Source of the DNA: an uncultured Candidatus Saccharibacteria bacterium
Lineage (GTDB): Bacteria; Patescibacteriota; Minisyncoccia; Phycocordibacterales; SBAW01
Assembly (NCBI GenBank): GCA_964615415.1
Contig: CAZTNI010000003.1
Location: 15,235-79,234, forward strand
Length of the DNA: 64,000 nucleotides
Direction: 5' to 3'
Each line of letters starts with the position of its first letter. The stretch's first letter is position 1. The notes below the pieces were generated by a model. That model was not told the DNA's origin. It searched no databases and worked only from the letters and a program-made list of their open reading frames with translations. The translations under genes and the position numbers were made by a program. This document shows, one piece after another, positions 45,141 to 63,900 of the stretch.

Positions 45141-45176
45141 AGGTCAATTCTCGGAGCCCTATGCTATACTAATGGC

Positions 45177-46070: not shown

Positions 46071-46100
46071 AAACCGCTCTGAAGACGAGCGGTTTTTACG
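46071..46100 (+). terminator. Intrinsic terminator
   Basis: aaaccgctc-tgaagac-gagcggttt followed by tttacgtttctt. Confidence 0.55.
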
Positions 46101-46524: not shown

Positions 46525-49500
46525 ATGACGTCACCTAGTAAAATAATTTCAGACTCTGGGAAGCCTATGCTTCCAGCGCGCAAGGTGGCGCAGCGTCTTT
46601 CGTGCGCACAAGACTACGTTGGCAAGCTTTGTCGCGAAGGAAAACTGAAGGGCACACAGGTTCGAAATGCTTGGTTTGTTGAAGAAGATTCTATTGCTGC
46701 TTTTGAGGCTGCTCGCGAGGCTGCCCGTGAAGCCCGCTCAAAGGATCTCGCCGAATTGCGTCGTAAAGAAAGTGCGCAGTACCGCAAGACACACCCAACT
46801 CTGGATGGAATTGCGTCTTCGTGGGTAGGTCGGGGCGCTGTAGCGGCATTAGGAGCAGTATTGCTGCTGTGCTCTGTTGCGTTTGCTGGCGAGATGAACG
46901 GAACGCTTAATCTTTTTGCAGGCAAGCAGGAACAATCAGCGGCTATTGCTCAAGTTGAGTCACCATTTTTCGGCTCACATGCGTTTTCTGTTACTGTGCC
47001 GACACTTCCTACTTCAAATCTTGCAAAAGATTTTATTTCAGGAGCACTTTCATTTTTCTTTGGTAAAAAAGATACGTCACTTGCAGAGAAAACACCTACA
47101 GAGGCTCCGGTGGTGACTGATGAACAAAATGGTCTGGCCTCGCCAAGCGAGGAGAACCGAGGACCTTTTGTGCAGCAGACACCATCGGAGACTCCTGCTC
47201 GACCTGTTGTGCAGAATACGTACCCGGTTATTGAGCGCACCGTCGAGCGCGTTACTACCGTATCTGGGGTATCCGAGGAATATCTTGCGCAGCGTTTGAG
47301 TGAACTTACAAATTCTCTTAAGTCAGAAATCTTTTCTGCAATAAATTCTGTTAGCACGTCATATTCGTCAGGTGGTCCTACCAACAATATCGCACTCACG
47401 CAGCGCATCGATCGCCTTGATGGAGTGACACTTTCGAACGTGTCGGTAAACGGCATTTCTGGCTTAACTGCAAGCGATATTCCTGTACTTGCATATCTGC
47501 CGACCGCTGGTGGAATTGTGACTGGCTCGACTACTGTCGCGGCTGACTTTACTGTTTCGGGAGCACTCAGTGTTACCGGCGCAACCTCAACTTTTGCAGG
47601 TATTACTATCGCAAGTCTCGACTGTACTGCGTATGGTAACGACGGAAAGCTCACCACCGATGCGTCAGGTAACATAGTCTGCGCAGACGACTATGGAGCT
47701 GCAGGAGGCGCAGGGTCTCCAGGGGGCGCAAACACATATGTGCAGTTTAACGACAGCGGTAACTTTGGTGGCGATGCAGGTTTTGTATATAACAAGACAC
47801 TCGACCGTCTTACTGTTGTAAACGCTTCAACGACGAACTTTACTTCAGACAATGCAACGTCAACGAATCTCTTTGCAACACTTGCACGCCTCACTACTGC
47901 GACAATTTCCTCGCTTACAGTAGGTTCTCTGAACGGTCCGCTCCAGGCAAACAACGGAGTCGTCTCTGCAACGACATCGGTTGGTGTGCTCTATGGCGGA
48001 ACAGGTCTAACCACTGCACCAAGTTATGGCCAACTCCTCTTGGGTAATGCGTCAGGCGGATACGACCTTGTTGCAACATCGTCACTGGGTATTACCAGTG
48101 CGCAGTGGGGAAATATTACCGGCACTTTGTCTGACCAGACGGACCTCCAAAATGCGTTGAATGCAAAATTCTCACTTTCTGCATGGTACGCAACGACGAC
48201 TGATGGACTTGCACAAGGTGTAACGAATAAGTATTACAACGATAGTTTGGTTCTGACATACCTCGACACACTTTCAAAGGGATATTTCTTCTCAACTTCG
48301 TCGGCACAGTATTTTGTACACGCCTCTACGACAATCCCAAAGACATATACGGCGAATACATTCACTGGTTCACAAACATTTACAGGCGGCGTTACAGTAG
48401 GTTCTCTGAACGGTCCGCTCCAGGCAAACAACGGCGTCGTCTCTGCAACGACATCGGTTGGTGTGCTCTATGGCGGTACTGGGCTCACGACTGCACCAAC
48501 GTATGGTCAAGTGCTTCTTGGAAATGCCTCGGGTGGCTACGACTTGGTTGCCACGTCGTCGCTTGGTATTACGGGCGGTGGCGACCTTTCAAACTACCTC
48601 TCGCTCGCTGCGTGGTATGCAACGACGACCGACGGTCTTGCGCAGGGTTCAACAAATCGCTACTACTCAGACACACTCGTGGGCACATATATTTCAGGCT
48701 CGTCAACAGTTCCACATATTGGTGGTTCAGCATACGGTGACCTGTTGTACTGGACTGGTACGGCATGGTCAACGATCGCTACGTCATCGCTTGGAATTAC
48801 GAGCGGTTCGCTTGCGTTTAGCTATCCATTCCCAAATGCAGCAACATCAACACTTATTGCGTTTGATGGCGGACTCACTGCGTACGCATCGTCAACGATC
48901 GGCACTGGTACACAGGCGGGCGGCCTCACTATTCGCGGTGGCGCAACAACGACTGGCAATGCATATATTGCAGGTTCGTTGAATGCAGGCGCTACCACAC
49001 TTACGTCGCTTACTCTTACAAACGTCTTAACGCCAGCAAATGGCGGCACTGGTACCTCAACACCAGGTGTGTGGGGCGATGTGCTTACCTGGAACGGCAC
49101 TAACTGGCAGGGAACTGCAACGTCGTCACTTGGGTTGCCGACACTTTCTACGCTGTCATCATACGCACTTGCCTCACAAACCTTTGGCAAGGCGTGGGAG
49201 ATCACCAACGGCTATCTTGCACCAACATCAACGCTCGGCATTATTGTCGCAGCATCTTCAACAATTGGTAACGGTACTGCAGCAGGAGGACTCACTGTTA
49301 ACGGTACCGCAACAACAACATTGCTTGCTATTACAGGTCCTGGCACTTCGACGATCGCAAGTAACATCCGCATGAGTGGAGATATTATTCCTTCGGTAGA
49401 CAATACGTATTCATTGGGTAGCGAACTGTACTCATGGAAAGAAGTATTTATCGGTCCAGGCTCGCTCTACGTTAATGGTCAGCAAGTTATCTCAACGAAC

Positions 49501-52500
49501 GGATCGAACGACGTTGTCGTTAGTACCGATCCAGGAGAAAACCTGGTGCTTCAAACCAGCGGCTCTTCAAACATCGAATTTAATCCAACGGGCGGCCAGA
49601 TTTTGTTTAAAAATACGGTTAACGTAACAGCGGGTAAGAGTATTACCACTACTGACCTGTCTGCACTTTCGATACCAAACGGTGTTGCGGCAGGAAATAT
49701 CACTGTTTCGGGTAATGCAATTACTGCAACAAACCTTAACGGTGGCATTTCTATTACTCCAACGGGCACCGGCGGTACGTATGTCACTGCGGGCAACTTT
49801 GGTATTGCAACAACATCGCCACTCGCAAAGCTCGATGTGTATGGCAACATGATCCTTTCTGGTACGGGTCGTTACATTAACTTCGACTACACCACAGGCT
49901 CGTCTGGCTACGGATTCCGCGACAATAGCGGCGTTCTTGAATTTAAAAACGCAAACGGTGCATGGGCGCCGTTTGCGTCATCAACTGGATACTTGGCACT
50001 CTCAAGTTGGTATGCAACCACGACAGATGGTCTTGATGAGGGGTCAACAAACCAGTACTACACCAATGAGCGTGTCGATGATCGTGTAGGGACTCTTTTG
50101 CAAGCAGGTTCAGGCGTCACGCTTAACTACAACGACGGTTCTGACACGCTTACCATCAGCGCAACGGGCGGCGGTGGCGGCGGAACCGACGTAAACTGGA
50201 CCTATTTCAACGGCTCAGGGTTATACCCATCGACCTCTACAAACCAGGTGTTAGTGGGCGGCACGTCGACGTCGTCGCTTCAGTCGCCACTCGCAAAACT
50301 CGGCGTCATTGGTGGTGCGTCTATCGACTACGCATCAACAACGGGTATCACCTCAAGTTATGCATCTTCAACAGCGGCATACTTTGGCAGTTTGTCAGTA
50401 GGAAATTTGACCGGCATTTTGCAGGCAATTAATGGCACAGTGTCTGCATCGTCATCAGTGTCGGTAGCGTTTGGCGGTACAGGACTTACCACAGCACCAA
50501 CGTACGGCCAACTTCTTATGGGTACTGCAGCGGGGGGATACTCGCTTGTTGCAACATCGTCACTTGGCATAACCGGCACTACGTACACATTTAATTATCC
50601 GCTTACAGAGTCTGCTGGGGTTGTGTCGCTTGCGTTTGGTACCACAACAGCAAACACCTGGAGCGCACACAACAGTTACTCAAGTCTTTTTGCAACAAAT
50701 GCATCAACAACAAATGCAACAACAACCAATTTTGCGGTAACCGGGCTTACAAACACACTGGTTAAGACAAATGCTTTGGGGCAGCTTGTTGCTGCAATTG
50801 CCGGTACGGACTACCAAACCTTTGCATACCCATTCCCATCAAACGCAACCACCACCTCTATCGCATTTAACGGCGGCCTTACCACAACCGGCGCAACGAT
50901 CGGTACATTGAACGGCCCATTGCAGGCAAACAACGGTGTCGTATCAGCAACCACATCTGTTGGCGTCCTCTATGGCGGTACAGGTCTTACTTCAATTGCA
51001 TCATCATCTATCTTGATCGGTAATGCGCAAGGCGGGTTTACTGCAGTTGCTACTTCGACACTTGGTTTTGCATCTGCTTCGTCTCTCTCAAACTACCTTT
51101 CGATCTCGGCATGGTATGCAACCACAACCGACGGGCTTGCGCAGGGCGTAACCAACCGCTACTACAGTGACACCCTTGTTGCTGCATACATTTCAGCATC
51201 ATCAACCATTCCGCATATTGGCGGCTCGGCATATGGCGATATGTTGTACTGGACGGGTACGGCATGGTCGACCCTTGCGACGTCGACACTCGGTCTTCCA
51301 ACATTTGCATCACTTGCAAGCTACCTCGCACTTGATGCGTGGTATGCAACAACAACTGATGGCTTGGATGAAGGTTCAAACAACCAGTACTTTACGCAGC
51401 AGCGTGCAACCGACAACTTCATTGCAAACCTTGCAGCAACAACGTCAGTTGCATCAATCACGACACTTCAAAATCTTTCAATTACTTCGTCACAAGTCTC
51501 TAACTTCAACACAAGTCTTAACTCATACATTCACTCTTCTACAACTATTCCAAAAACCTACACTGCAAATACGTTCACTGGGGCGCAGACATTTAGTGGT
51601 GGTCTCAGTATCTCAACCCTTAACGGTCCACTCCAGGCAAACAATGGGGTAGTATCAGCAACTACATCGGTCGGTGTGCTCTACGGAGGCACTGGCCTTA
51701 CCTCTACTCCAACCTACGGTCAGCTCCTTGTTGGCAACGGCACGGGCTACACCCTTACATCTACTTCATCACTTGGTCTTCTTTCATCAACATCGATCCA
51801 AGCTGTAGCACCGCTGTCATGGAACGCAAACACCGGCGCACTTTCTATCGCACAGGCAACAGCGTCAACTGATGGGTACCTTGCCTCAGCAGACTTCACC
51901 ACCTTCAACAATAAAGTTTCCTCATCGTCACTCATTGCCTTCAACAACACCTTCCGTGAATGGAGTCTTGTAAACGGTGTTCTCGTTCCGACCTCAACTG
52001 TAGGTGTCATTGTATCCGCATCGTCCACTATTAGTGGGGGTCTCACCGTTGTAGGCAACGCAACCTCAACTTCAGCGGCAATCACTTCAATTACCTCAAG
52101 CCTCCTCAAGACCAACTCTTTGGGGCAGCTTGTTGCTGCAGTAGCCGGAACCGACTACCTTACCTCTGCAAGTCTCGAGCCGAGCTTCACTTTTGCAACA
52201 AACTTCGGAGTACTTACTGCGGCTACATCATCAACCATCTGGGCACAGTCTGGTTTGTTTGCGTCTTCTACGTCACGTTTTGCAAACATCATTGCTGCTA
52301 ATGCAACCACCACCTCTCTATATATTGCATCGCTCACGGGCCCGCTCCAGGCAGTTAATGGCCAAGTGTCGGCAACCTCAACACTTTCAGTCGCATACGG
52401 CGGTACCGGCGCAACTACGTTGAATGACCTTATTACGCTCGGCACGCACACGACTGGCAACTTCCTTGCAACACTTGCAAATGGTGGAGGTCTTACAGTA

Positions 52501-55500
52501 AGTGGTTCAGGTTCTGAAAATGCAGGAGTAACCGTAGCACTCGACCTTACGAATCAAAACAATTGGACGGGTCTCCAGCGCTTTGTAAACGCATCATCAA
52601 GTGCGCTTTCTGGAACAATCGCCTCGTTTGGTGGCACTGCAACGTCATCATTCGGCGTTGATGGTGCATTAACGCTCGCGGGTGGGCTTAACGGTCCGCT
52701 CCAAGCAAACAACGGTGTGGTATCTGCAACGACTTCTATAGGTGTGAAGTATGGCGGTACTGGTCTTACAACAGCGCCGTCATACGGTAACGTGCTTGTG
52801 GGTGATGGCTTGGGTGGGTACACACTCACTTCAACATCATCACTCGGTCTTGGCGGTGGTGGTTCACAGTGGATCACTAATGCTGCAGACTTGTACTACA
52901 CGACTGGCAATGTCGGTATCGGCACAACATCTCCAAGTGGCAAACTCACCATCGCTGGTGGCAGCATTATTCATACAGCTTCGAGCTCTCCGGTTATCGC
53001 AAGTAGTACTAATACTGCGAGTGTGACGTACGGAAGTTATGTAGTTGGTAAGTACGCATATGTTGCAGACTTTGCGAGCGGTTTGCGCATTTTCGACATC
53101 ACCAGTCCGAAGAACCCGGTGCAAGTGGGCGCATACACAGGCATTAGTGGCGCAGTCTCAGTTGTGGTTGCAGGGAAGTATGCGTTCGTGAGCGACAACA
53201 CCGTTGGCCTTAACGTCATCGATGTTTCAAGTCCTGCGGCGCCGGTGCGTGTTGGTCAGCTTTCGACTGCAGGCCGCGCGTTTACGATGGAGCTTTCGGG
53301 TAAATACATCTACTACCCAGACATTTTGAGCGGTTTGGTAAAAGTAATTGATATTAGTAACCCAGAGTCGCCGGTCGTTGCAGGTACATTCGACACTGGC
53401 GGCGAGCCGTACGGCATTGCGCTTTCGGGCAAGTACCTCTTTGTTGGTGACCAGTTGAACGCAGTTATCGACATTCTCGATATTTCGAACCCAGTCTCAC
53501 CACTTTTGGTGCAGCAGTACTCTCCGATGGGTAGCCCAACAGGTATGTACGCCTCGGGTCGGTACCTCTATGCAGCAGATGCCACCGCAGGCCTCACCAT
53601 CTTCGATATTTCTGACCCGGCAGACATTACTGAAGTAGGGAATTATGGCGGCAACTTCTTTAGTGTCCAAGTAGCGGGCGAGTATGCATACGTAGGTAGC
53701 AGCGCAGGTGTTGTGTCAGTACTCGACATCCACGCTCCAGAGAGTCCAAAGTTTGTCGGCAGCTATTCTGCAGGTGCAAACGCTCGTAACATCTTCCTTT
53801 CTGGTAAGTATGCATACGTTGCAGCATCGGCAAACGGCTACCGCATCCTCGACATAAACGGTACACAAACGCCGTCAGCGACCATCGGCTCGCTCGAGGC
53901 AGATGTTGCAGTCGTAAATGACAACCTCCGTGTCGGAGGAAATATTTTGGCGCAAGGCGGTCTCGATGTTGGTATCTCAGGTATCTTCTCGCGCGGTGCA
54001 CTCGGCGTGTTTGTTGCATCATCAACACAAACGAACGCAGTCGCAGCAACCTTTATGGGTGGGTACGTCGGCATCGGCACCACGACTCCAGGCCGTGCAC
54101 TCGCAATAGAAGGTGCGTCACTCCTCGGCAACAGTGCAACTGCAGGGTATTTCACTGCTACAACGACAACTGCATCACAATTCCCATACGCATCGACAAC
54201 CGCTATCACTGCAACAACAGCGTCAACAACCAACCTCTATATCTCTGGCGTCCTTTCATCACTCCTTAAGACAAATGCATCAGGCCAGGTGGTTGCAGCA
54301 GTCGCCGGCACTGACTACGCAAACTTCGCATACCCATTCATCAACAGTGCAACCTCATCACTCCTTACATTCTCTGGCGGTCTCACTGTCTCAGCAGGCA
54401 ACCTGACGCTTGGTTCTCTTAATGGCCCACTCCAGGCAAACAACGGTGTCGTATCAGCAACCACATCTGTTGGGGTACTCTACGGCGGCACTGGCCTTAC
54501 CTCTACTCCAACCTACGGCCAGCTCCTCTTAGGCAACGGCACAGGCTACACACTTACCTCAACCTCATCACTCGGTCTTCTCTCAGCACTCACTCGTGAC
54601 TGGAACATGACGAATGGCTACCTTGCTCCTACAACGACCGTGGGCATCATTGTTGCTGCATCTTCGACTATTGGTTCTGGTTCACAAACTGGTGGTCTTA
54701 CCATTAACGGTGGTGCAACAACAACGGGCAACGCTTACTTTGCAGGGAATGTAGGAATTGGCACGTCGAACCCTAGTGCAAAATTAACGGTAGAAACTTC
54801 GTCGGCAAATCCCGCATTGGTGATTAATGGCACTGATGCTAACGACTGGATTAGTTGGCACTTCCAGCGACAGGGAACTGCAAAAGCAGGATTTGCGATA
54901 TCGAACCTCGGCACATATGGCGGCAATGCGTTTACCATCTCTACACATAACGGTGTAGGGTGGCAAGATTCAGCTGTGTTTGAAAGCGGTGCTCCTACCG
55001 GTACGTTGTATGCAACAGCAGCTGGCAACCTTGGTGTCGGCACCACGGCCCCAGCTTACAAACTCGATGTAGCAGGCTCTATAAATGTAGACGAATATTC
55101 GGGTTACAAGTTGGGTGGCAATACAGTGTTGTACGCTTCAACTACAAACACGTCGCTTGCGGTGGGGGCGTCAGCAGCTGCTTCATGGATGGCTGCATCG
55201 TCAACTGTGTGGAATAGTGTTGCAATCGGTTCTGGTGCTCTTGCCACAGCCCCTGTTAATGCAAATGCAATCAATAACATGGCGATTGGCACGAATGCGC
55301 TTCGCAACCTTACGACGGGCACAAACAACGTGGGTATTGGTAAGGACACGCTGTACACCAACACTTCTGGTTCAGAAAACTTCGCACTTGGTACCGGAGC
55401 TTTGTACTACAATAATGGCGACTATAACGTTGGTATTGGCGCTGGTGTGCTCCAAAACAACACGACTGCAAGTTACAACATCGGTATTGGCCGCCTCTCG

Positions 55501-58500
55501 CTCCAAAACAACACAACTGGCGCTAACAACATCGGCATTGGCGGCGCAACGCTTAACCAGGCAACATCTTCAAGCAACAACACTGCTATCGGTCACTACG
55601 CAGGGTACTCAATTTCTGGAGCAACAGGAGATGTGGGAGCAGGCAACACACTTATTGGTTATCAGGCAGGTACGGACATTACAACCGGTAGCTACAACAC
55701 GATCCTCGGGTACTTCACTGGCAGTGGCAGTTCAGTAACGACCGGCAGCAACAATATCCTTATTGGCCAGGATGTCCGCGCAGGTCTTACTCAAACAGGG
55801 TCTAACCAACTTAATATTGGTAACCTCCTCTTTGGTACCGGCCTTGGGAGTGGAACGACTGGTGCGTCGGGCAACATTGGTATCGGCACATCATCACCAT
55901 ACGCAAAACTTTCTGTAGCGGGGGACATTGTTGGTACAAACATAACCGCAACAGGCACATTGTCAGTTGCTGGCAACACCACACTTGCAAACGCAACATC
56001 ATCAGCGTTTGCTATCACTTCAATTGCGTCAGCATTGTTGAAGACAGATGCGTCAGGAAATATCATCCCAGCAGTTGCAGGCACTGACTACGTTGCTGGT
56101 TCGTCATACTTCTCATACCCATTCCCGTCAAACGCAACAACAACTGCAATTGCGTTCAACGGAGGTCTTTCAGCAAGTGCATTTACACTCGGTACACTCA
56201 ACGGCCCACTGCAGGCAAACAACGGGGTAGTGTCAGCAACAACATCTGTTGGTGTTCTCTATGGCGGCACAGGACTTACCTCAATCGCATCTTCAACCCT
56301 CATTATCGGCAACGCACAGGGCGGCTTCTCACCAATCGCAACCTCATCACTTGGTCTTGTTGCATTTGCTGACCTCACACCATACGCACTTGCGTCACAA
56401 ACCTTCGGCAAAGCATGGGAGATTACGAACGGCTACCTTGCTCCAACTTCAACGCTCGGCATCATTGTTGCGGCTTCATCAACGATCGGTGGTGGTACAC
56501 AGACTACAGGTCTTACCGTTAATGGTGGTGCGACGACGACTGGTAACTTAATAGTGCAGGGAAGTGGCACATCAACTATTGCTACTGCGCTTGCTATCGG
56601 CGGCGATGGTTCGGGCGCATATCAAGATGCTATGGACTTTGTTGTCGGTTCTCTTACAGGAGCAAACGGTATGACTATCCGCTCAGGCACCGCAGGTGTT
56701 GGAAACATCTTCTTCTCTGATGGTGTTTCTGGCTCTGCACAATATGCAGGAATGATCTCATACAGTCATTCGTTCGACCGGTTCCAAATCACTACCGGTG
56801 GTTCGGGCTACAGCGGCTCAAACGGTATGTACATTACCTCAAACGGCAACACTGCTATCGGTACCACAACCCCATACAGCAAGCTCACCACCTGGGGCAC
56901 CGGCTCACTCTTCGAAGCAGTTACAAACGCATCAACAACTATCTTCAAGATCGGCCAAGCAGGTGCAACCACAACAGCTCTCGCAATCTCGTCGATCACC
57001 TCATCACTCCTCAAGACCGACGCAAACGGTAATGTTATTCCAGCAGTCGCCGGCACTGACTACGCAAACTTCGCATACCCATTCATCAACAGTGCAACCT
57101 CATCACTCCTTACATTCTCTGGCGGTCTCACTGTCTCAGCAGGCAACCTGACGCTTGGTTCTCTTAATGGCCCACTCCAGGCAAACAACGGTGTCGTATC
57201 AGCAACCACATCTGTTGGGGTACTCTACGGCGGCACTGGCCTTACCTCTACTCCAACCTACGGCCAGCTCCTCTTAGGCAACGGCACAGGCTACACACTT
57301 ACCTCAACCTCATCACTCGGTCTTCTCTCAGCACTCACTCGTGACTGGAACATGACGAATGGCTACCTTGCTCCTACAACGACCGTGGGCATCATTGTTG
57401 CTGCATCTTCGACTATTGGTTCTGGTTCACAAACTGGTGGCCTGACCATCAACGGCGGCGCAACGACGACGGGGAATGGGTATGTTGCAGGAACTTTCGG
57501 AGTTGGCACGACAACACCGGTCGGTACTTTTGGCGTAAATGGCACTTTGAAAGTCTTCTCGTCTACTTGGGCAACAAGTAGTATTTCCGGTCCGTTTGAA
57601 ATTATGGGTCCCGACACTGGCGACAGTACACTCCTTCGTCTTGCGGGAACGCGTCCGTGGGAATTTAAAGAAAATGGATCAGGCGCAGGTAGTGGGCTCG
57701 GCTTGTACAGCTTGAATGCTGACGGATCTCAGGGTAATAAATGGTTCACCATCTTCACCTCGCGCACTAACTTGGCGGGTCAGGATGGAACACAACGTTT
57801 TACCTTTAATCACGACTCTGGTGCTATGACGGGAGGCAATGTTTCTCTCGAGTCATGGGCAGCGACATCAGTTGGGTTGAAAATCACTGCAACCACAACT
57901 CAAACAGCAGACCTTACGCAGTGGTTGAATGAAAGTAATGCTCTGGTGGCGAACGTAACTGCTGCGGGTAACTTTGGTCTCGGCACCTCTTCTCCATACG
58001 CAAAACTTTCTGTCGCAAGTAGTACTGGTACGCTCATTGCGGCGGATGCGCCGTCAGCCTTTAGCGGCACCCTTCTTGACCTTAAGGTTGCATCATCATC
58101 AGTCTTTACAGTAGGTGCAGCAGGTGCAACCACTACCAACCTTGCAGTCACGGGCATCACCTCAAGTCTCCTCAAGACAAACGCACTCGGCCAGCTTGTT
58201 GCAGCAGTAGCAAACACCGATTACTCAGCATTTGGCTACCTCTTCCCAGCAAATGCAACGACAACAGGTCTTGGCCTCTACGCTTCAACAACAATCGGTG
58301 CAGGCACTCAAACAACAGGCCTCACCATTTCTGGCGGCGCGACGACGACTGGCAACTTGTATATTGCGGGGAATGTAGGTGTTGCTTCAACTACTCCATG
58401 GGCACGTCTCTCGGTAGATACTTCAAGTTTGGCAGTAGGTGTTCCTGCATTTGCAGTAGGATCATCAACACGCACTGACTTTGTTGTTACCCAGGCAGGC

Positions 58501-61500
58501 CAAGTGGGCATAGGCACCTCCACACCAAGCGCATCTAGCCTCCTCCATATAGTTGGCGAAACGACTGGTAATAACACGGCGGTGATGGCAACGATCCAAA
58601 ACTACAACGCACAGGGGAGAGCAACCTTCTCTGCGGCGAATAATCAAGGCGACACCGCAGGTTTTCAAGTGACTGGGCCAAGCTTGTCTGGTCTTAGTTT
58701 GGACCGCAGCGCCATCGTCTTTGGAACAGGCACTCGCCAGATGGTATTGATGCCTGACGGTAATGTTGGAGCGACGGGCACGTCCTCGATTCTCTTCCGT
58801 CTCGGTGGGTACAACGCGTCTCGCGATCTTATTGCCTTTACCTACCAGGGGTACCAGGGCATTGGCACAACGTCGCCGTTTGCAAAATTGCAGGTGGCAT
58901 CAAGTTCTGCAAATGCATCAAATTTTGGACAACTTGCGCTGACTGATACAAATGCAGGGACTAACCTTAAACATTGGTTAGTGTCTTCTCTCGGAGGCTC
59001 TCTCTTTATCGGCACAACGACTGATACATATGCAACATCAACTGTTGCTGCGCTTGCTATAAATCAAAATGGCCGCGTCACGATCGGAAATGATCTCACT
59101 GTTAACGGTAGTGCAACAACAACGGGCAACGCATACTTTGCAGGCAATGTTGCTATAGCTACTTCCTCGCCGTTTGGAAATGGGTGGCTGACTATAGGCA
59201 CATCTTCTCCACGTTTCTATGTAGACAATACAACTGGCAGTATTGGTATTGGCACTACAACACCAACCTCTACGTTGCATATAGTTGGTCGTTTGAGTGT
59301 CGGTTCTCCTTCAACTAACTCTACTGCGGAGAGAAATCTTTTCATTTCAGACTCTGGCGCAGCAGTTGCACGCGGCTCAAGCACAGTCTTGATCGGTAAC
59401 AATATAAACACCAACTCATCGGATCTTTCTACTTCGGGCACGGACTGCAGCGTGGTTGTTGGTAACAGTGCATCTACTCCGGGCGGCAACAACGATTATT
59501 GTCAGGTAGTTATCGGAGCAAGTGCCAAGGTTGCAATCTCTGTCTTAAGCGCGGCAGAGCCAAAAAACACAGTTATTGGTGCATCGGCGCTCTCACGAGA
59601 TGGTGCTGACAACGTTGCAATTGGTTATACAGCATCAACACGTGGATACAACGCAGTTGCAATTGGCTCAGGCGCGCTTGCTTCAAGTACTGGCGCAATT
59701 GCAATTGGTATGGGCACGCTTGCCTCAAGTACAAATTCTTTAGGTATCGGCAGAAATGCAGATGTTAGCGGAAATTCTTCGGGCAATATTGGCGGGACAA
59801 GTCTGACGGTTACTCAAGACAATACCTTCTCATACGGCATTACTTCAACAAAGCATGGTTTCGGCACAGTAAGTCCATCAGCACAACTCCATATCGCTTC
59901 CACTACTGGGTGGGGAGACATGTTTAAAATTACGGCAGGGAACCAACTCCTTGTTGTTAGTCAGCCAGGCAATCTTGGGTTGGGAACTTCTTCTCCGTAT
60001 GCGCGTCTTTCAGTCGCAAGCAGCACCGGTACGCTCATTGCGGCGGATGCTCCAAGTGGTTTCTCTGGCAAGCTTCTTGATCTTAAGGTTGCGTCGTCAA
60101 CAATCTTTAGTGTGGGCCCAGCAGGCGCAACCACAACCGCACTCGCTATTGCAAACCTTACGGCAGCAGACTGCGATGTGAAATCGACCACCGATGGCTC
60201 GCTCTACTGCGGTACAGACGCAACTGGTTCTGGGTCTGCATTCCCATTCATCACTACTTCGTACGGTGTTTCAACTTCGACCTTGGTTGGATTTACTAAC
60301 GGCATCCTCTCACTTGCATCAACAACAATTGGTGGCGGCACACAGACAACAGGCCTCACTATTTCTGGTGGCGCAACAACAACAGGCAATGCTTACTTTG
60401 CAGGAAATATTGGTGTTGGCACAATCTCTCCTGAAGTAAGTCTCCATGTTACAGCTCTGACCTCTTCGCCGCAGACATCTGGAACCACTGCAGCTGGAAG
60501 TCTTGCGCTTGAGACGACAAACGACAATGGCTTGTACTTCGGCTCGTACGGCACAACTCCATTTGGTTCATGGATCCAGGCAAGCAACCGTGCAGACCTT
60601 TCTATCTCGTACCCAATTATCCTTAACCCGAATGGTGGCAATGTTGGTATCGGCACCACCTCGCCATACGCAAAACTTTCTGTTGTTGGTTCTGTAGTGG
60701 CAGACAGCTTTGCTGCAACATCAACGACTGCAACGTCAACCTTTGCTGGCGGTCTTTCGGTAGGTAATGGCTCACTCCAGTACGACTTCTCAAGTGGAGT
60801 AACATCAATCGACAACCTGTCGCTCGGTGCACTTAACTTCGACACCGACGCAGGCATTCTTTCTTGGATAGACATGCCAGTTACTTCAAACGCATCGCAG
60901 GGGACTGTTATGAGCTACACAGCGCAGCTTGATGGCAACCCGCTTCTTACTGTCTACGGCGAGTCTAATGGGTCGGGCGGTATACAAAATACTGCGATTG
61001 GTATTGGCACCACCTCTCCATACGCAAAACTTTCTGTCTCTGGTGCAGTTGTTGCTGCAAACTTTGTTGCAACTACGACAAGTATCTCAAGCTTTACGTA
61101 CGCATCTACGACAGCGCTTTCTGCAGACACGCTCTGTCTTGCGGGCGACTGCCGTACCTCATGGCCATCGGGCGGCGCGGGGGCATATCCGTTTACTGTT
61201 TCTGGCAACGCAACCTCAACATTAACGCAATTTAACGCCGGCCTTACCGCATATGCATCGTCAACTATTGGCGCAGGTGCACGCGCTACTGGCCTTACAA
61301 TACACGGTGGTGCAACGACAACAGGTATTGCTTACTTTGCAGCAAATGTTGGTATTGGCACCACGTCGCCGTTCCGTCCACTTTCAATCTCTTCTGCAAC
61401 TGATGCAAATATTGAAATCTACAACTCTGCAAATGCGCGTGGTATGAAAATAGGTCTACTCGATGGCTTTAACGCGGGTATCGACTCTACAGGTGGTGCA

Positions 61501-63900
61501 ACTGTTATTAACGGCAACGGTACGACATATCTCACCGTTGGTTCTGGTGGCAACACCTACTTTAACGATCTTGGCGGGACCTTTGGCAAGGTGGGCATTG
61601 CCTCAAGTACCCCGTGGGGTCTGTTGTCAGTGAACGGAAACGCTCTCACGTCCGGAGCTCCACAATTTGTTGTCGGCTCTTCAACCAAAACAGACTTCAT
61701 TGTTACCAATGCGGGCAATGTGGGCATCGGCACTACTTCTCCATACGCAAAACTTTCAGTTATTGGTGGTGGCAACAACGGCGTCTACCCATCGTTTGTT
61801 GTTGCAACAACATCAGATTGGTTGAGTAGAGGTACGGGCGGTCAGGCGCCACTCTTCTACGTAACTGCAACCACAACCGGCGACCTCGACTATGCTCGTG
61901 TGGCTATCGGTACTACAACCACGTTGGGTAGTCCGGCTGGTTTGCGCGACCAGTTTACCGTTGCGGGCCGTATTTACTCAACCTGGGGTTACATGTCCTG
62001 CGATGTGCCAGGTGTTGCCACAACCCTTACGGCCGACACGCCAAACGCCTGCGGCGACTTTGCACTCGACGAGTTGACCGACGGCGACCTTATCAACCAA
62101 GCGTCAGTCTACCCACCGCTTGCACGTCTTGCGCCGGGTACTGGTACTGGCCTTGCGGCAAACGAAGGTGCAGTGATTCGTGGCAACAACTCTATGCCAG
62201 CTACGACGAGCCCTGTGATGGAAGTAACGTCGCGCATTGTTGCAGCAAACTCAACCAGTACCCTCTACCTTATCGGCTTTGCAGACGTAAACTTTGGTAC
62301 TGGCACCATCGCTATCCCACAAAACGGTGCATTCTTTGCGGCATCATCAACTGACAGTACGTGGAAGGCTATCGTTCGCTCAAACAATGTTGAAACTCGC
62401 GTCGACACCAACATCGCTACAACATCTACTGCGGGCACGCTCCATCGCTTCCGTATCGAAGTTTCTTCTTCATCTGTTGTCTTTATGATGAATGGCAATA
62501 TTGTTGCAAACATTGCGCCAGCTGCAGCGCCGCGTCGCCCTATGGCACCGATGCTCTTGGTAGGTCGTTTTACCGGCGCAACTGCGGGCACCATTAACAC
62601 CAGTGGTAACGTAAGCAGTCTCGACTTTGGTAGTTTGCGTGTGTGGGTGGACGACCCGCCTGCAACCGCTGCTGCGCCGGACACTATCATTACTGCTGAA
62701 GATATTGCCTATAGTGCAGTTGAAGGTGCAGACATTGCGGAAGCAGAGTTGGTGCATGATGCGGGTCAATATCTCCCAGGTCTTATAGTGACGCACGCAA
62801 CAACGACTGGTGTAGATATGGTGAGCCTCTCGCAGGGTCGCTACGCATCGTCGGTGCTTGGTGTTGTTTCAACCGCACCGCACACAACACTTGGCCAGGA
62901 AACTGCTTCTACGGTGCGTGTTGGTCTTGTGGGTCGCGTGCCAGTTATTGTCTCGCTTGAAAATGGTCCTATTGCAAAGGGTGATGTAATTGCGCCGTCA
63001 TCAATCCCAGGCGTTGGTATGCGCGCAACGCGTCCTGGTTCTACGGTAGGTACTGCGTTTGAGAGCTTTGCAACGTCAACCGAGCAGAGCGAACCTATGT
63101 GCGATCCTGCACTTAGACAGCAGCTTGTAGACGTAGGTATTGCAGTCCCAACAGATGCTTGTCTCTCGACAGTGCTGGTTGCACTGAACCCGGGCACAAA
63201 CATGAGTATCGGCGACGTGTTGCAAGATGCAGGCAACCCAATAACCGACTTTGCAGGTGCGATGCTTGAGCTTGCAAATGCTGCGTACGGCAAGGGAGCA
63301 GAGTTGTTGAAGATGGTTGTAGGAGAGTTGGTAGCAAAGGTTGCGGTTATAGGAGATTTGTTTGCAGACAATATTACCGCAACAGTGATAAATGCTGACA
63401 CTGTTAATACTAAGACACTGTGTCTCGACGGACTCTGTGTCACTAAGGATCAACTCCAGAGTCTTCTCGATGGAGCTGGGGTAGAGAGCGCTCCGCAAAA
63501 TAATCCACCATCACCAGATGCTGGCACAACAACCCCTGACGCAGAGGCCCCGGTAGTAACTGTTAATGGCAACAATCCTGCAACTATCTCTGTTGGTGCG
63601 ACATACAGCGACCTTGGGGTAACGGTCACGGACAACAACGATAGTAATATTGGCTACACGTTGACGCTTAATGGAGGCGCGTCTATGACTCAAGACCAGC
63701 TCGTTATCGATACGTCGGTCGCTGGTGAACATACTATTGTATATACCGCTGCAGACACCGAGGGAAATGTAAGTACGGCAACTCGTATTGTTATCGTTGA
63801 AGCGCCTGCTGCTCCTGAAGCTCCAGAAGCACCTGTAGTAGTTGTAGAAGAAGGAAGTGGTGACGGTTCAGAATCTGCTTCTAGTACTCCACAAGAGTAA
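46525..63900 (+). CDS. Giant (5,791-aa) membrane-anchored multi-domain surface fibre / adhesin-like protein. It has an N-terminal HTH_17-like domain plus a TM anchor, tail-fibre-like Thr/Ser/Gly-rich repeats, a 7-blade LVIVD beta-propeller, two YadA-head (Hep_Hag)-like beta-roll regions, a ConA/LamG-like region and a C-terminal DUF5011/Ig-like domain
   Basis: A single stop-free 17,376-nt ORF. An alternative start at ATG 46567 puts the HTH at the extreme N-terminus. A TM helix AVAALGAVLLLCSVAFAG sits at ~aa 100-120. Repeats recur: LNGPLQANNGVVSATTSVGVLYGGTGLT (at least 9 times) and GNVGIGTTSPYAKLSV (at least 12 times). LVIVD repeats at nt ~53040-53880 (GKYAYVADFASGLRIFDITSPKNPVQVGAY, 7 times). 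Hep_Hag-like NSVAIGSGALA...NNMAIGTNAL... at ~55170-55800 and ~59380-59830. The C-terminal segment PVVTVNGNNPATISVGATYSDLGVTVTDN...TIVYTAADTEGNVSTATRIVIV is DUF5011-like. Confidence 0.85.
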   Translation: MTSPSKIISDSGKPMLPARKVAQRLSCAQDYVGKLCREGKLKGTQVRNAWFVEEDSIAAFEAAREAAREARSKDLAELRRKESAQYRKTHPTLDGIASSWVGRGAVAALGAVLLLCSVAFAGEMNGTLNLFAGKQEQSAAIAQVESPFFGSHAFSVTVPTLPTSNLAKDFISGALSFFFGKKDTSLAEKTPTEAPVVTDEQNGLASPSEENRGPFVQQTPSETPARPVVQNTYPVIERTVERVTTVSGVSEEYLAQRLSELTNSLKSEIFSAINSVSTSYSSGGPTNNIALTQRIDRLDGVTLSNVSVNGISGLTASDIPVLAYLPTAGGIVTGSTTVAADFTVSGALSVTGATSTFAGITIASLDCTAYGNDGKLTTDASGNIVCADDYGAAGGAGSPGGANTYVQFNDSGNFGGDAGFVYNKTLDRLTVVNASTTNFTSDNATSTNLFATLARLTTATISSLTVGSLNGPLQANNGVVSATTSVGVLYGGTGLTTAPSYGQLLLGNASGGYDLVATSSLGITSAQWGNITGTLSDQTDLQNALNAKFSLSAWYATTTDGLAQGVTNKYYNDSLVLTYLDTLSKGYFFSTSSAQYFVHASTTIPKTYTANTFTGSQTFTGGVTVGSLNGPLQANNGVVSATTSVGVLYGGTGLTTAPTYGQVLLGNASGGYDLVATSSLGITGGGDLSNYLSLAAWYATTTDGLAQGSTNRYYSDTLVGTYISGSSTVPHIGGSAYGDLLYWTGTAWSTIATSSLGITSGSLAFSYPFPNAATSTLIAFDGGLTAYASSTIGTGTQAGGLTIRGGATTTGNAYIAGSLNAGATTLTSLTLTNVLTPANGGTGTSTPGVWGDVLTWNGTNWQGTATSSLGLPTLSTLSSYALASQTFGKAWEITNGYLAPTSTLGIIVAASSTIGNGTAAGGLTVNGTATTTLLAITGPGTSTIASNIRMSGDIIPSVDNTYSLGSELYSWKEVFIGPGSLYVNGQQVISTNGSNDVVVSTDPGENLVLQTSGSSNIEFNPTGGQILFKNTVNVTAGKSITTTDLSALSIPNGVAAGNITVSGNAITATNLNGGISITPTGTGGTYVTAGNFGIATTSPLAKLDVYGNMILSGTGRYINFDYTTGSSGYGFRDNSGVLEFKNANGAWAPFASSTGYLALSSWYATTTDGLDEGSTNQYYTNERVDDRVGTLLQAGSGVTLNYNDGSDTLTISATGGGGGGTDVNWTYFNGSGLYPSTSTNQVLVGGTSTSSLQSPLAKLGVIGGASIDYASTTGITSSYASSTAAYFGSLSVGNLTGILQAINGTVSASSSVSVAFGGTGLTTAPTYGQLLMGTAAGGYSLVATSSLGITGTTYTFNYPLTESAGVVSLAFGTTTANTWSAHNSYSSLFATNASTTNATTTNFAVTGLTNTLVKTNALGQLVAAIAGTDYQTFAYPFPSNATTTSIAFNGGLTTTGATIGTLNGPLQANNGVVSATTSVGVLYGGTGLTSIASSSILIGNAQGGFTAVATSTLGFASASSLSNYLSISAWYATTTDGLAQGVTNRYYSDTLVAAYISASSTIPHIGGSAYGDMLYWTGTAWSTLATSTLGLPTFASLASYLALDAWYATTTDGLDEGSNNQYFTQQRATDNFIANLAATTSVASITTLQNLSITSSQVSNFNTSLNSYIHSSTTIPKTYTANTFTGAQTFSGGLSISTLNGPLQANNGVVSATTSVGVLYGGTGLTSTPTYGQLLVGNGTGYTLTSTSSLGLLSSTSIQAVAPLSWNANTGALSIAQATASTDGYLASADFTTFNNKVSSSSLIAFNNTFREWSLVNGVLVPTSTVGVIVSASSTISGGLTVVGNATSTSAAITSITSSLLKTNSLGQLVAAVAGTDYLTSASLEPSFTFATNFGVLTAATSSTIWAQSGLFASSTSRFANIIAANATTTSLYIASLTGPLQAVNGQVSATSTLSVAYGGTGATTLNDLITLGTHTTGNFLATLANGGGLTVSGSGSENAGVTVALDLTNQNNWTGLQRFVNASSSALSGTIASFGGTATSSFGVDGALTLAGGLNGPLQANNGVVSATTSIGVKYGGTGLTTAPSYGNVLVGDGLGGYTLTSTSSLGLGGGGSQWITNAADLYYTTGNVGIGTTSPSGKLTIAGGSIIHTASSSPVIASSTNTASVTYGSYVVGKYAYVADFASGLRIFDITSPKNPVQVGAYTGISGAVSVVVAGKYAFVSDNTVGLNVIDVSSPAAPVRVGQLSTAGRAFTMELSGKYIYYPDILSGLVKVIDISNPESPVVAGTFDTGGEPYGIALSGKYLFVGDQLNAVIDILDISNPVSPLLVQQYSPMGSPTGMYASGRYLYAADATAGLTIFDISDPADITEVGNYGGNFFSVQVAGEYAYVGSSAGVVSVLDIHAPESPKFVGSYSAGANARNIFLSGKYAYVAASANGYRILDINGTQTPSATIGSLEADVAVVNDNLRVGGNILAQGGLDVGISGIFSRGALGVFVASSTQTNAVAATFMGGYVGIGTTTPGRALAIEGASLLGNSATAGYFTATTTTASQFPYASTTAITATTASTTNLYISGVLSSLLKTNASGQVVAAVAGTDYANFAYPFINSATSSLLTFSGGLTVSAGNLTLGSLNGPLQANNGVVSATTSVGVLYGGTGLTSTPTYGQLLLGNGTGYTLTSTSSLGLLSALTRDWNMTNGYLAPTTTVGIIVAASSTIGSGSQTGGLTINGGATTTGNAYFAGNVGIGTSNPSAKLTVETSSANPALVINGTDANDWISWHFQRQGTAKAGFAISNLGTYGGNAFTISTHNGVGWQDSAVFESGAPTGTLYATAAGNLGVGTTAPAYKLDVAGSINVDEYSGYKLGGNTVLYASTTNTSLAVGASAAASWMAASSTVWNSVAIGSGALATAPVNANAINNMAIGTNALRNLTTGTNNVGIGKDTLYTNTSGSENFALGTGALYYNNGDYNVGIGAGVLQNNTTASYNIGIGRLSLQNNTTGANNIGIGGATLNQATSSSNNTAIGHYAGYSISGATGDVGAGNTLIGYQAGTDITTGSYNTILGYFTGSGSSVTTGSNNILIGQDVRAGLTQTGSNQLNIGNLLFGTGLGSGTTGASGNIGIGTSSPYAKLSVAGDIVGTNITATGTLSVAGNTTLANATSSAFAITSIASALLKTDASGNIIPAVAGTDYVAGSSYFSYPFPSNATTTAIAFNGGLSASAFTLGTLNGPLQANNGVVSATTSVGVLYGGTGLTSIASSTLIIGNAQGGFSPIATSSLGLVAFADLTPYALASQTFGKAWEITNGYLAPTSTLGIIVAASSTIGGGTQTTGLTVNGGATTTGNLIVQGSGTSTIATALAIGGDGSGAYQDAMDFVVGSLTGANGMTIRSGTAGVGNIFFSDGVSGSAQYAGMISYSHSFDRFQITTGGSGYSGSNGMYITSNGNTAIGTTTPYSKLTTWGTGSLFEAVTNASTTIFKIGQAGATTTALAISSITSSLLKTDANGNVIPAVAGTDYANFAYPFINSATSSLLTFSGGLTVSAGNLTLGSLNGPLQANNGVVSATTSVGVLYGGTGLTSTPTYGQLLLGNGTGYTLTSTSSLGLLSALTRDWNMTNGYLAPTTTVGIIVAASSTIGSGSQTGGLTINGGATTTGNGYVAGTFGVGTTTPVGTFGVNGTLKVFSSTWATSSISGPFEIMGPDTGDSTLLRLAGTRPWEFKENGSGAGSGLGLYSLNADGSQGNKWFTIFTSRTNLAGQDGTQRFTFNHDSGAMTGGNVSLESWAATSVGLKITATTTQTADLTQWLNESNALVANVTAAGNFGLGTSSPYAKLSVASSTGTLIAADAPSAFSGTLLDLKVASSSVFTVGAAGATTTNLAVTGITSSLLKTNALGQLVAAVANTDYSAFGYLFPANATTTGLGLYASTTIGAGTQTTGLTISGGATTTGNLYIAGNVGVASTTPWARLSVDTSSLAVGVPAFAVGSSTRTDFVVTQAGQVGIGTSTPSASSLLHIVGETTGNNTAVMATIQNYNAQGRATFSAANNQGDTAGFQVTGPSLSGLSLDRSAIVFGTGTRQMVLMPDGNVGATGTSSILFRLGGYNASRDLIAFTYQGYQGIGTTSPFAKLQVASSSANASNFGQLALTDTNAGTNLKHWLVSSLGGSLFIGTTTDTYATSTVAALAINQNGRVTIGNDLTVNGSATTTGNAYFAGNVAIATSSPFGNGWLTIGTSSPRFYVDNTTGSIGIGTTTPTSTLHIVGRLSVGSPSTNSTAERNLFISDSGAAVARGSSTVLIGNNINTNSSDLSTSGTDCSVVVGNSASTPGGNNDYCQVVIGASAKVAISVLSAAEPKNTVIGASALSRDGADNVAIGYTASTRGYNAVAIGSGALASSTGAIAIGMGTLASSTNSLGIGRNADVSGNSSGNIGGTSLTVTQDNTFSYGITSTKHGFGTVSPSAQLHIASTTGWGDMFKITAGNQLLVVSQPGNLGLGTSSPYARLSVASSTGTLIAADAPSGFSGKLLDLKVASSTIFSVGPAGATTTALAIANLTAADCDVKSTTDGSLYCGTDATGSGSAFPFITTSYGVSTSTLVGFTNGILSLASTTIGGGTQTTGLTISGGATTTGNAYFAGNIGVGTISPEVSLHVTALTSSPQTSGTTAAGSLALETTNDNGLYFGSYGTTPFGSWIQASNRADLSISYPIILNPNGGNVGIGTTSPYAKLSVVGSVVADSFAATSTTATSTFAGGLSVGNGSLQYDFSSGVTSIDNLSLGALNFDTDAGILSWIDMPVTSNASQGTVMSYTAQLDGNPLLTVYGESNGSGGIQNTAIGIGTTSPYAKLSVSGAVVAANFVATTTSISSFTYASTTALSADTLCLAGDCRTSWPSGGAGAYPFTVSGNATSTLTQFNAGLTAYASSTIGAGARATGLTIHGGATTTGIAYFAANVGIGTTSPFRPLSISSATDANIEIYNSANARGMKIGLLDGFNAGIDSTGGATVINGNGTTYLTVGSGGNTYFNDLGGTFGKVGIASSTPWGLLSVNGNALTSGAPQFVVGSSTKTDFIVTNAGNVGIGTTSPYAKLSVIGGGNNGVYPSFVVATTSDWLSRGTGGQAPLFYVTATTTGDLDYARVAIGTTTTLGSPAGLRDQFTVAGRIYSTWGYMSCDVPGVATTLTADTPNACGDFALDELTDGDLINQASVYPPLARLAPGTGTGLAANEGAVIRGNNSMPATTSPVMEVTSRIVAANSTSTLYLIGFADVNFGTGTIAIPQNGAFFAASSTDSTWKAIVRSNNVETRVDTNIATTSTAGTLHRFRIEVSSSSVVFMMNGNIVANIAPAAAPRRPMAPMLLVGRFTGATAGTINTSGNVSSLDFGSLRVWVDDPPATAAAPDTIITAEDIAYSAVEGADIAEAELVHDAGQYLPGLIVTHATTTGVDMVSLSQGRYASSVLGVVSTAPHTTLGQETASTVRVGLVGRVPVIVSLENGPIAKGDVIAPSSIPGVGMRATRPGSTVGTAFESFATSTEQSEPMCDPALRQQLVDVGIAVPTDACLSTVLVALNPGTNMSIGDVLQDAGNPITDFAGAMLELANAAYGKGAELLKMVVGELVAKVAVIGDLFADNITATVINADTVNTKTLCLDGLCVTKDQLQSLLDGAGVESAPQNNPPSPDAGTTTPDAEAPVVTVNGNNPATISVGATYSDLGVTVTDNNDSNIGYTLTLNGGASMTQDQLVIDTSVAGEHTIVYTAADTEGNVSTATRIVIVEAPAAPEAPEAPVVVVEEGSGDGSESASSTPQE
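54296..54695 (+). repeat. 400-bp perfect direct repeat, copy 1 (inside the giant gene)
   Basis: Nucleotide-identical to 57041-57440 by manual line-by-line comparison. Confidence 0.8.
57041..57440 (+). repeat. 400-bp perfect direct repeat, copy 2 (inside the giant gene)
   Basis: Identical to 54296-54695. The two copies are separated by 2,745 bp, in the same reading frame. Confidence 0.8.

What the first reader, a model, noticed from the sequence alone, without database searches (positions are those of the whole stretch)
54296..57440. 400-bp nucleotide-perfect direct repeat inside the giant gene (54296-54695 = 57041-57440)
Manual comparison shows two 400-bp stretches identical at every position, 2,745 bp apart, in frame within the same ORF. 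This indicates very recent duplication or ongoing gene conversion. Homologous recombination between the copies would delete or duplicate a 916-aa block in frame, a plausible length or antigenic variation mechanism for a surface fibre. It is also a classic source of short-read misassembly, so the true copy number of the intervening modules may differ. Many shorter near-identical repeats also occur (for example ~85 bp at 47921 and 48401).
Basis: seen in the sequence. Interest (0 to 1): 0.65.

Follow-up and report, generated by a model that had tools for sequence, protein, structure and literature searches.

The report
Gene-conversion tract in giant surface gene
Two 400-base stretches inside one giant bacterial surface-fibre gene are letter-for-letter identical because one repeat module was recently copied over another, which is a real but ordinary event in repetitive surface-protein genes.

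Summary
Window 54296-54695 equals 57041-57440 at 400 of 400 positions, with a mismatch directly on each side. The copies lie 2,745 nt (915 codons, not 916) apart, in frame in a 5,791-aa ORF (46525-63900). The next-longest exact repeat in the 64 kb is 43 nt.

The tract sits in register inside two of ten old, diverged paralogous modules. Other module pairs differ at 39-71% of codons that encode the same amino acid. Right of the tract the protein stays identical for 12 more codons, and 9 of them differ synonymously. A third module of the same type lies between the copies and is only 67% identical. This pattern indicates a sharp-edged intragenic gene-conversion tract. It is not a recent 2.7-kb duplication and not selection on the protein.

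An independent k=31 assembly of public reads (Logan, SRR14271366) starts a contig exactly 30 nt before the end of copy 2, so the right-hand junction exists in raw reads. Distant homologues in Patescibacteria carry similar sharp-edged exact tracts of 92-212 nt.

Recombination between the copies would give in-frame 4,876-aa or 6,706-aa variants. That is plausible but untested, and the copy number of the intervening block is unverified. I rate this an ordinary mechanism in a new setting, of low to moderate interest.

The parts
46525..63900 (+). Giant ORF of 5,791 aa, rich in Thr, Gly, Ser and Ala. It has an N-terminal HTH_17-like segment, one hydrophobic helix (aa 101-122), and a long modular, presumably extracellular region.
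   Evidence: ORF list; translation; composition and hydropathy; Pfam LVIVD and Bact_surface_Ig-like; HTH_17 below threshold at 18.9 bits; 1,296 homologues, the named ones mostly Patescibacteria
54296..54695 (+). Copy 1 of the 400-nt perfect repeat (R), spanning codons 2591-2724, inside module M2632
   Evidence: 400 of 400 identity with 57041-57440 and mismatches immediately outside
57041..57440 (+). Copy 2 of the 400-nt perfect repeat (R), spanning codons 3506-3639, inside module M3547
   Evidence: Logan contig L004 starts at window 57411, which is 30 nt (k-1) before the end of this copy, and shows 0 mismatches over 6,590 nt
54696..57040 (+). Intervening block B. B plus one copy of R makes the 2,745-nt (915-codon) unit that recombination between the copies would delete or duplicate. 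B is not similar to the sequence 2,745 nt downstream.
   Evidence: Identity on the diagonal is 17-41% per 100 nt
54220..54765 (+). Approximate full extent of paralogous module M2632 (motifs LLKT..AGTDY, YPF, LNGPLQANNGVVSATTS, SSLGL, TNGYLAPT, GGATTTGN). Its flanks outside R are only about 57-75% identical to those of M3547.
   Evidence: the repeat finder families D4, D6, D7 and D11; diagonal alignment; module alignment
56965..57510 (+). Approximate full extent of paralogous module M3547, the partner of M2632
55993..56600 (+). Module M3225, a third module of the same architecture lying between the two converted modules. It is 67% nt identical to them, and 39-40% of same-amino-acid codons differ.
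54696..54731 (+). Right flank of copy 1. These 12 codons encode the same amino acids as 57441-57476, but 9 of them differ at synonymous positions. This marks the DNA-level edge of the tract.
47915..47999 (+). Older or shorter homogenised patch, 84 of 85 identical to 48392-48476 (modules M469 and M628, 477 nt apart)
48392..48476 (+). Partner of the 85-nt patch
   Evidence: Logan contig L001 ends at 47944, 30 nt into the 43-mer shared by these two patches

Best explanation
The 400-nt identity is a recent, non-reciprocal homologous-recombination (gene conversion) tract. It lies between two anciently diverged paralogous modules of one giant, membrane-anchored, fibre-like surface-protein gene of a Patescibacteria (CPR) bacterium.

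Shown:
- The identity is perfect and bounded by mismatches.
- It is in register with a module that occurs ten times in the gene.
- Its flanks, and every other module pair, are saturated with synonymous differences.
- A diverged module of the same type lies between the two copies.
- The right-hand junction is present in raw reads.

Inferred:
- A break or gap in one module was repaired from the other, through RecA-type strand invasion seeded in short conserved-motif islands. The islands include the AVAGTDY motif at the left edge and GGLTINGGATTTGN at the right edge; other paralogue pairs share exact runs of 32-43 nt. The repair overwrote about 400 nt.
- Consequence: the gene now holds two 400-nt perfect direct repeats, more than enough for RecA-dependent unequal exchange. 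That exchange would remove or add a 915-aa block in frame, giving 4,876 or 6,706 aa. This second step is possible, not demonstrated.
- Similar tracts in distant homologues suggest that patchy homogenisation is a general property of this gene family.
For: - Exact identity 400 of 400 with no extension; the next-longest exact repeat in the window is 43 nt.
- The offset is a multiple of 3 and both copies lie inside ORF 46525-63900.
- There are ten LNGPLQANNG-type modules. Excluding the converted pair, pairwise nt identity is 36-67% and 39-71% of same-amino-acid codons differ. The pair M2632/M3547 has 0 differences in the 400 nt.
- Within the 28-aa motif that is invariant in seven modules, other pairs differ at 10-17 of 28 codons (6 of 28 for M469/M628). 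The pair differs at 0 of 28.
- Amino-acid identity runs for 146 aa, 12 codons past the nucleotide identity, and 9 of those 12 codons differ synonymously.
- The chance of 132 codons with no synonymous difference is about 5e-29 at the lowest background rate.
- The rest of the 2,745-nt diagonal is at random identity, so there is no large duplication.
- Logan contigs from SRR14271366 break exactly k-1 = 30 nt into or before repeats. L001 ends at 47944. L004 starts at 57411 and was found by predicting its partial product. It shows 0 mismatches, and three contigs carry that same partial product.
- Homologous giant genes show the same kind of sharp-edged, in-frame exact tracts: L002 with 212, 146, 143 and 113 nt, L005 with 147 nt, L006 with 92 nt.
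- A 400-nt tract is within the range measured for bacterial gene conversion. The average unrestricted walk was about 1,000 nt in the Salmonella tuf genes (PMC5485169).
Against: - No outgroup strain with an unconverted copy was found, so non-reciprocity and donor direction are not shown. Genome and metagenome scans gave only 39-50% identical relatives or nothing.
- If the pre-conversion modules were as diverged as their flanks (about 60-75% nt), RecA-mediated exchange across them would be inefficient.
- The interior identity of the two copies rests on the window assembly alone. Only the right-hand junction is independently confirmed.
- Whether Logan's reads are independent of those used for the window is unknown.
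- recA is not in the window.
Confidence: 0.8

Rival explanations
1. Assembly artefact. The A-R-B-R-C layout, or the perfect identity, was produced by the assembler or by polishing. The true gene would then have a different copy number of the B-R loop, or two non-identical copies.
For: A 400-nt exact repeat exceeds short-read k-mers, and the de Bruijn graph is a loop whose multiplicity the graph alone cannot give. Logan contigs do break at this repeat. The interior of R is not independently confirmed.
Against: The k=31 graph of raw reads branches exactly at the right edge of R, at window 57411. That requires the last 30 nt of R in two contexts. Assemblers collapse repeats rather than homogenise segments that are about 70% identical. 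Mis-polishing needs copies that are already near-identical. The tract is in register and in frame with old paralogous modules. Similar tracts occur in independent SPAdes and nanopore assemblies of relatives.
Confidence: 0.07
2. A recent segmental (tandem) duplication of a 2,745-nt unit, of which only the 400 nt remain identical.
For: It is a direct, in-frame repeat at a fixed spacing.
Against: Outside about 54.2-54.8 kb the 2,745-nt diagonal is at random identity, 17-41% per 100 nt. The immediate flanks are synonymously saturated (9 of 12 codons), which is incompatible with a duplication young enough to leave 400 nt untouched.
Confidence: 0.02
3. The identity is maintained by selection on the nucleotide sequence itself, through an embedded RNA, a regulatory element, or a diversity-generating retroelement template/variable repeat pair.
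For: Identity at every synonymous site could in principle reflect constraint at the nucleotide level.
Against: There is no Rfam match at E<=1 in 54000-57700. The 400 nt fold no better than shuffles (z = +1.39). The Pfam scans of the main ORFs of at least 150 aa in the window returned no reverse-transcriptase family. DGR repeats are shorter and differ at adenines, whereas this pair has no differences at all. The other eight modules with the same protein motif are free to vary synonymously.
Confidence: 0.02
4. A selected variation device. The perfect repeats are kept identical because recombination between them switches the fibre between length forms, in the manner of Periscope Proteins, or serves as part of an antigenic-variation system. 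This is compatible with the best explanation as the origin of the repeat, but adds a function.
For: 400 nt of perfect in-frame direct repeat is an efficient recombination substrate, and the products stay in frame. Surface proteins with DNA-identical repeats are known to vary in length (PMC8201768). Several relatives also carry exact tracts.
Against: No length variant was observed. There are only two dispersed copies rather than a tandem array of near-identical domains. The tracts in relatives differ in place and length, as expected for sporadic conversion rather than a conserved switch.
Confidence: 0.09

Closest known systems
Intragenic or ectopic gene conversion driving concerted evolution of repeated sequences in bacteria (for example the duplicate tuf genes of Salmonella, PMC5485169)
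   Same: Both involve non-allelic homologous sequences in one genome, a continuous identity block with sharp ends, and a tract length of hundreds of nt. Both homogenise synonymous as well as non-synonymous sites.
   Different: Here the partners are two modules of one 17-kb ORF whose flanks are 25-40% diverged, not two nearly identical genes. The event was inferred from sequence and not observed. Donor and recipient are unknown.
Periscope Proteins and other variable-length repeat adhesins (SasG, Rib, Sgo_0707; PMC8201768)
   Same: Both are long repetitive surface proteins in which DNA-level identity between repeats provides a substrate for intragenic recombination that changes length in frame.
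   Different: Periscope Proteins have tandem arrays of many highly identical folded domains and documented length variation between strains. This gene has one dispersed pair 2.7 kb apart among modules that are otherwise 36-67% identical, and no variant is documented.
Patescibacteria 'tail fiber domain-containing' or 'trimeric autotransporter adhesin'-annotated large proteins (PF13884- or PF16403-bearing homologues)
   Same: They share the motif modules (SSLGI/L, NGPLQANNG, GNVGIGTTSPxAKL), the C-terminal Bact_surface_Ig-like domain and, in some, an HTH_17-like N-terminus.
   Different: No PF13884 hit was found in this protein. The YadA_head hit is below threshold (24.5 versus 25 bits). No YadA-type membrane anchor was detected. 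The function of the family is untested.

Membership tests
Gene-conversion tract between paralogous repeats | A continuous block of identity between paralogous sequences, bounded by clearly more divergent homologous flanks | tested here: met
   400 of 400 identical. The adjacent 30-nt windows show 17/30 identity on the left and 25/30 then 22/30 on the right, falling to random beyond.
Gene-conversion tract between paralogous repeats | Synonymous-site identity inside the block far above the paralogue background, which excludes protein-level selection | tested here: met
   0 synonymous differences in 132 codons, against 39-71% of same-amino-acid codons differing in other pairs. 9 of 12 differ just outside the tract. 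P is about 5e-29.
Gene-conversion tract between paralogous repeats | Non-reciprocal transfer, with donor and recipient identified by comparison with an unconverted orthologue | not testable with these tools
   No close relative was found. The best are 50% and 39% identical loci, and there were no JGI metagenome hits.
Periscope Proteins (variable-length surface stalks) | A tandem array of highly identical (at DNA level) folded domain repeats | tested here: not met
   Only one identical pair, 2,745 nt apart. Other module pairs are 36-67% nt identical.
Periscope Proteins (variable-length surface stalks) | Repeat-number or length variation between strains | not testable with these tools
   There is no strain series or read-level data. 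The Logan k=31 graph cannot resolve it.
Diversity-generating retroelement (TR/VR pair) | A nearby reverse transcriptase, and a TR/VR pair that differs mainly at adenines | tested here: not met
   No reverse-transcriptase family was returned by the Pfam scans of the main ORFs of at least 150 aa in the window. The copies are identical and both lie in the same ORF.
Trimeric autotransporter adhesin | YadA-type head repeats together with a C-terminal YadA membrane-anchor barrel | tested here: not met
   YadA_head reaches only 24.5 bits against a cut-off of 25. There is no anchor-domain hit in the C-terminal 899 aa at E<=1.
Tail fiber domain-containing protein (Peptidase_S74, PF13884) | A PF13884 intramolecular-chaperone domain | tested here: not met
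   PF13884 is absent from the Pfam results for this protein, although it is precomputed for many homologues.
Mobile-element insertion flanked by direct repeats | The intervening DNA encodes transposition or integration functions, and the repeats are non-coding or are target duplications | tested here: not met
   The intervening 2,345 nt continue the same ORF and contain a paralogous module.

The most novel reading that the evidence does not exclude
The perfect 400-nt pair is kept by selection as an in-frame recombination switch. It would let a CPR/Patescibacteria cell population toggle its giant surface fibre between forms of about 4,876, 5,791 and 6,706 aa. Repeated patchy conversion among modules would be the family's way of generating and renewing such switches. 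This would be a dispersed-repeat analogue of Periscope Proteins in episymbiotic ultra-small bacteria.
Probability: 0.12. Interest if true: 0.5.

Novelty: new member of a known kind. Interest (0 to 1): 0.25.

Why it matters
The practical value is threefold.
- It flags a place where the assembly's block copy number should be verified before the 5,791-aa length is quoted.
- It shows that modules of these very large, uncharacterised Patescibacteria surface proteins exchange sequence with each other. Module trees will therefore not reflect history.
- It provides a concrete, PCR-testable candidate for length variation of a probable attachment fibre in an uncultivated episymbiont lineage.

The underlying mechanism, gene conversion among repeats of a surface-protein gene, is well known.

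Tried and rejected
- **Segmental duplication:** rejected, because the 2,745-nt diagonal is random outside the module and the flanks are synonymously saturated.
- **Embedded RNA or nucleotide-level element:** no Rfam hit and fold z = +1.39.
- **DGR:** no reverse-transcriptase family in the Pfam scans of the window's main ORFs, and the copies show no differences.
- **Mobile element:** the intervening DNA is the same ORF.
- **Search for the source genome or close relatives to polarise the event:**
  - The genome-contig scan gave only two distant loci, 50% and 39% identical.
  - The exact 41-mer scan of the JGI metagenomes gave 0 hits.
  - The protein scan of the metagenomes gave 0 confirmed hits.
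  - The protein database gave 1,296 homologues, none above 76% identical even locally.
- **Read-graph confirmation of the left junction and of block B:** Exact-sequence lookups of the predicted A, B and C fragments were not in that collection.
- **Module phylogeny against L002:** L002 holds only one module matching the motif, so there was no orthology test.
- **Structure of aa 2550-2800 with a 25-sequence alignment:** pLDDT 64, pTM 0.34, almost all coil. This is uninformative, as may be expected for a fibrous or oligomeric protein modelled as a monomer. No fold search was run on it.
- **Family searches on the module:** the PDB sequence search gave no hit at E<=1, PHROGs gave none, and NCBIfam gave only a sub-threshold choice_anch_B hit over the LVIVD region.
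- **Donor direction from GC3 of the flanks:** values of 0.42-0.55 against 0.48 in R are not discriminating.
Full report
**Observation.** Window 54296-54695 and 57041-57440 are identical at all 400 positions, and the bases immediately outside differ on both sides. Both copies begin at the second position of a codon of one ORF, 46525-63900, encoding 5,791 aa. The next-longest exact direct repeat in the whole 64-kb window is 43 nt.

**Where the repeat sits.** The ORF product is rich in Thr, Gly, Ser and Ala (50% in total).
- It has a weak HTH_17-like N-terminus, a single strongly hydrophobic helix at aa 101-122, seven LVIVD repeats, a sub-threshold YadA_head hit and a C-terminal Bact_surface_Ig-like domain.
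- It has 1,296 database homologues. The named ones are almost all from Patescibacteria (Paceibacterota, Parcubacteria, Minisyncoccia) and are labelled 'tail fiber domain-containing protein' or 'trimeric autotransporter adhesin'.
- The neighbouring genes are housekeeping genes (SecA, Obg, GatB, MurB, ClpP). Upstream lies a 34-kb glycan-synthesis cluster.
- I therefore read this as a chromosomal gene for a membrane-anchored, fibre-like surface protein of a CPR bacterium. The localisation and the adhesin role are inferred, not shown.

**Modules.** The gene contains ten copies of a module built around LNGPLQANNGVVSATTS...SSLGL. The 400-nt repeat lies in register in two of them, M2632 and M3547. 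A third module with the same full architecture, M3225, lies between them.

**Why this is gene conversion and not duplication or protein-level selection.**
- Excluding the converted pair, module pairs are 36-67% identical in nucleotides, and 39-71% of codons encoding the same amino acid differ synonymously.
- In the 28-residue motif that is invariant in seven modules, other pairs differ at 10-17 of 28 codons (6 of 28 for the neighbouring pair M469/M628). M2632 and M3547 differ at 0 of 28.
- The amino-acid identity of the pair runs for 146 residues, 12 codons past the right end of the nucleotide identity. Nine of those 12 codons differ at synonymous positions. The edge is therefore a DNA-level edge inside a stretch where the proteins were already the same.
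- At the lowest background rate (0.39), 132 codons without a synonymous difference has a probability of about 5e-29.
- The rest of the 2,745-nt diagonal is at random identity. M3225, lying between the copies, is only 67% identical to them. This excludes a young 2.7-kb duplication.
- Both ends of the tract fall at conserved motifs: AVAGTDY on the left and GGLTINGGATTTGN on the right. These are places where diverged paralogues retain enough local identity to seed or resolve exchange, and other paralogue pairs share exact runs of 32-43 nt.
- A 400-nt tract is well within the measured range for bacterial gene conversion. The mean unrestricted walk was about 1,000 nt in the Salmonella tuf genes (PMC5485169).

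**Is it real in reads?**
- The neighbouring 273-aa and GatB proteins led to a Logan (k=31) contig from run SRR14271366. It equals window 39681-47944 with no mismatch and ends exactly 30 nt into the 43-nt repeat at 47915.
- Using that rule, I predicted that a Logan contig should start at 57411, 30 nt before the end of copy 2, with a partial product beginning at 57412. Looking up that predicted 2,162-aa product returned a 20.5-kb contig starting exactly there. It is identical to the window over 6,590 nt, and three contigs carry the same partial product.
- The raw-read graph therefore branches at the right edge of the repeat, which requires the last 30 nt of R in two contexts.
- The left junction, the interior identity and the number of B-R loops could not be checked.

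**Generality.** No close relative exists in the collections searched, so the donor and recipient cannot be assigned. Distant homologous giant genes do show the same signature. These are in-frame exact tracts with sharp edges among diverged flanks:
- 212, 146, 143 and 113 nt in a SPAdes MAG (L002);
- 147 nt in L005;
- 92 nt in L006, whose contig name points to a nanopore-based assembly.

Patchy homogenisation among modules thus looks like a family trait. The 400-nt tract is the longest one seen here.

**Alternatives tested.**
- No Rfam family matches, and the RNA fold is no better than shuffles.
- The Pfam scans of the window's main ORFs returned no reverse-transcriptase family, and there are no adenine-specific differences, so this is not a DGR.
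- The intervening DNA is coding sequence of the same gene, so it is not a mobile element.
- A monomer AlphaFold model of the module was of low confidence (pLDDT 64). The PDB, PHROGs and NCBIfam searches gave nothing useful for the module.

**Consequence.** Two perfect 400-nt direct repeats in frame are an ample substrate for RecA-type unequal exchange. The products would be 4,876 or 6,706 aa. This resembles the logic proposed for variable-length 'Periscope' surface proteins (PMC8201768). This gene, however, fails that class's defining feature of a tandem array of near-identical domains, and no length variant has been observed.

**Verdict.** The best explanation is a recent intragenic gene-conversion tract (confidence about 0.8). 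The length-variation idea is plausible but untested. The phenomenon is a new instance of a well-known process, of low to moderate interest.

Noticed in passing
window 1-34401: A large surface-glycan biosynthesis cluster. It holds more than a dozen GT1, GT2, GT4 and GT11 glycosyltransferases, a PMT_2-type transferase (6642-8072), a Wzm/Wzt ABC exporter (27532-29618, minus strand), GDP-mannose dehydratase, DegT aminotransferase, AsnB-like amidotransferase and a Wzy_C+TPR protein (32122-34401). Given the Ser/Thr-rich giant protein nearby, protein glycosylation is a thought, but it was not tested.
   Followed up: partly
window 709-2679: A 656-aa ORF that fuses a GT4 glycosyltransferase to partial UDP-glucose/GDP-mannose dehydrogenase domains (the N-domain match starts at profile position 71). 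It is either an unusual fusion or a remnant.
   Followed up: no
window 45177-45998 and 46525-46720: The 273-aa ORF just upstream and the giant ORF share an HTH_17-like N-terminal segment: 34% identity over 59 aa, with Pfam HTH_17 below threshold in both. Some homologues of the giant protein also carry PF12728. A cytoplasmic HTH-like head on membrane-anchored giant proteins appears recurrent in this lineage.
   Followed up: partly
window ~52970-54020 (aa ~2150-2500 of the giant ORF): Seven LVIVD repeats (probably a beta-propeller) are embedded in the fibre-like protein, directly upstream of repeat copy 1. NCBIfam gives a sub-threshold choice-of-anchor B match there.
   Followed up: no
window 47915-47999 and 48392-48476: A second, smaller homogenised patch, 84 of 85 identical, between adjacent modules 477 nt apart. 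The two modules differ at only 6 of 28 codons in the invariant motif, against 10-17 for other pairs. This suggests an older or shorter conversion.
   Followed up: partly
L002 18767-21456 (CAYNRJ010000002.1, MAG labelled Ca. Saccharibacteria): An open frame of at least 6,526 aa that runs off the end of the locus. It carries in-frame exact repeats of 212, 146, 143 and 113 nt with sharp edges.
   Followed up: partly
L010-L013 (IMG/VR contigs): Contigs classed as viral encode proteins with a hydrophobic, signal-peptide-like N-terminus that carry the same short motifs (SSLGI/L, YGQxLxGN, GNAYFAGNVGIGT), at 55-65% identity over 33-67 aa. These modules are therefore shared with putative phage fibre proteins, or the contigs are misclassified.
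   Followed up: partly
L006 4666-25769 (ENA contig_133285_np1212): Five large homologous ORFs (1,787, 1,922, 1,647, 1,389 and 1,777 aa), with one small 147-aa ORF among them, lie on one strand in what looks from the contig name like a nanopore-based assembly. They may be one much larger gene broken by indel errors.
   Followed up: no
L007-L009 (JGI contigs carrying P0014): A 1,916-aa homologue with Peptidase_S74 and an Ig-like domain sits next to genes typical of an integrated or conjugative element (HTH_17, Phage_AlpA, TrwB-like, methyltransferases, PemK toxin). Some family members may therefore be carried on mobile DNA.
   Followed up: no
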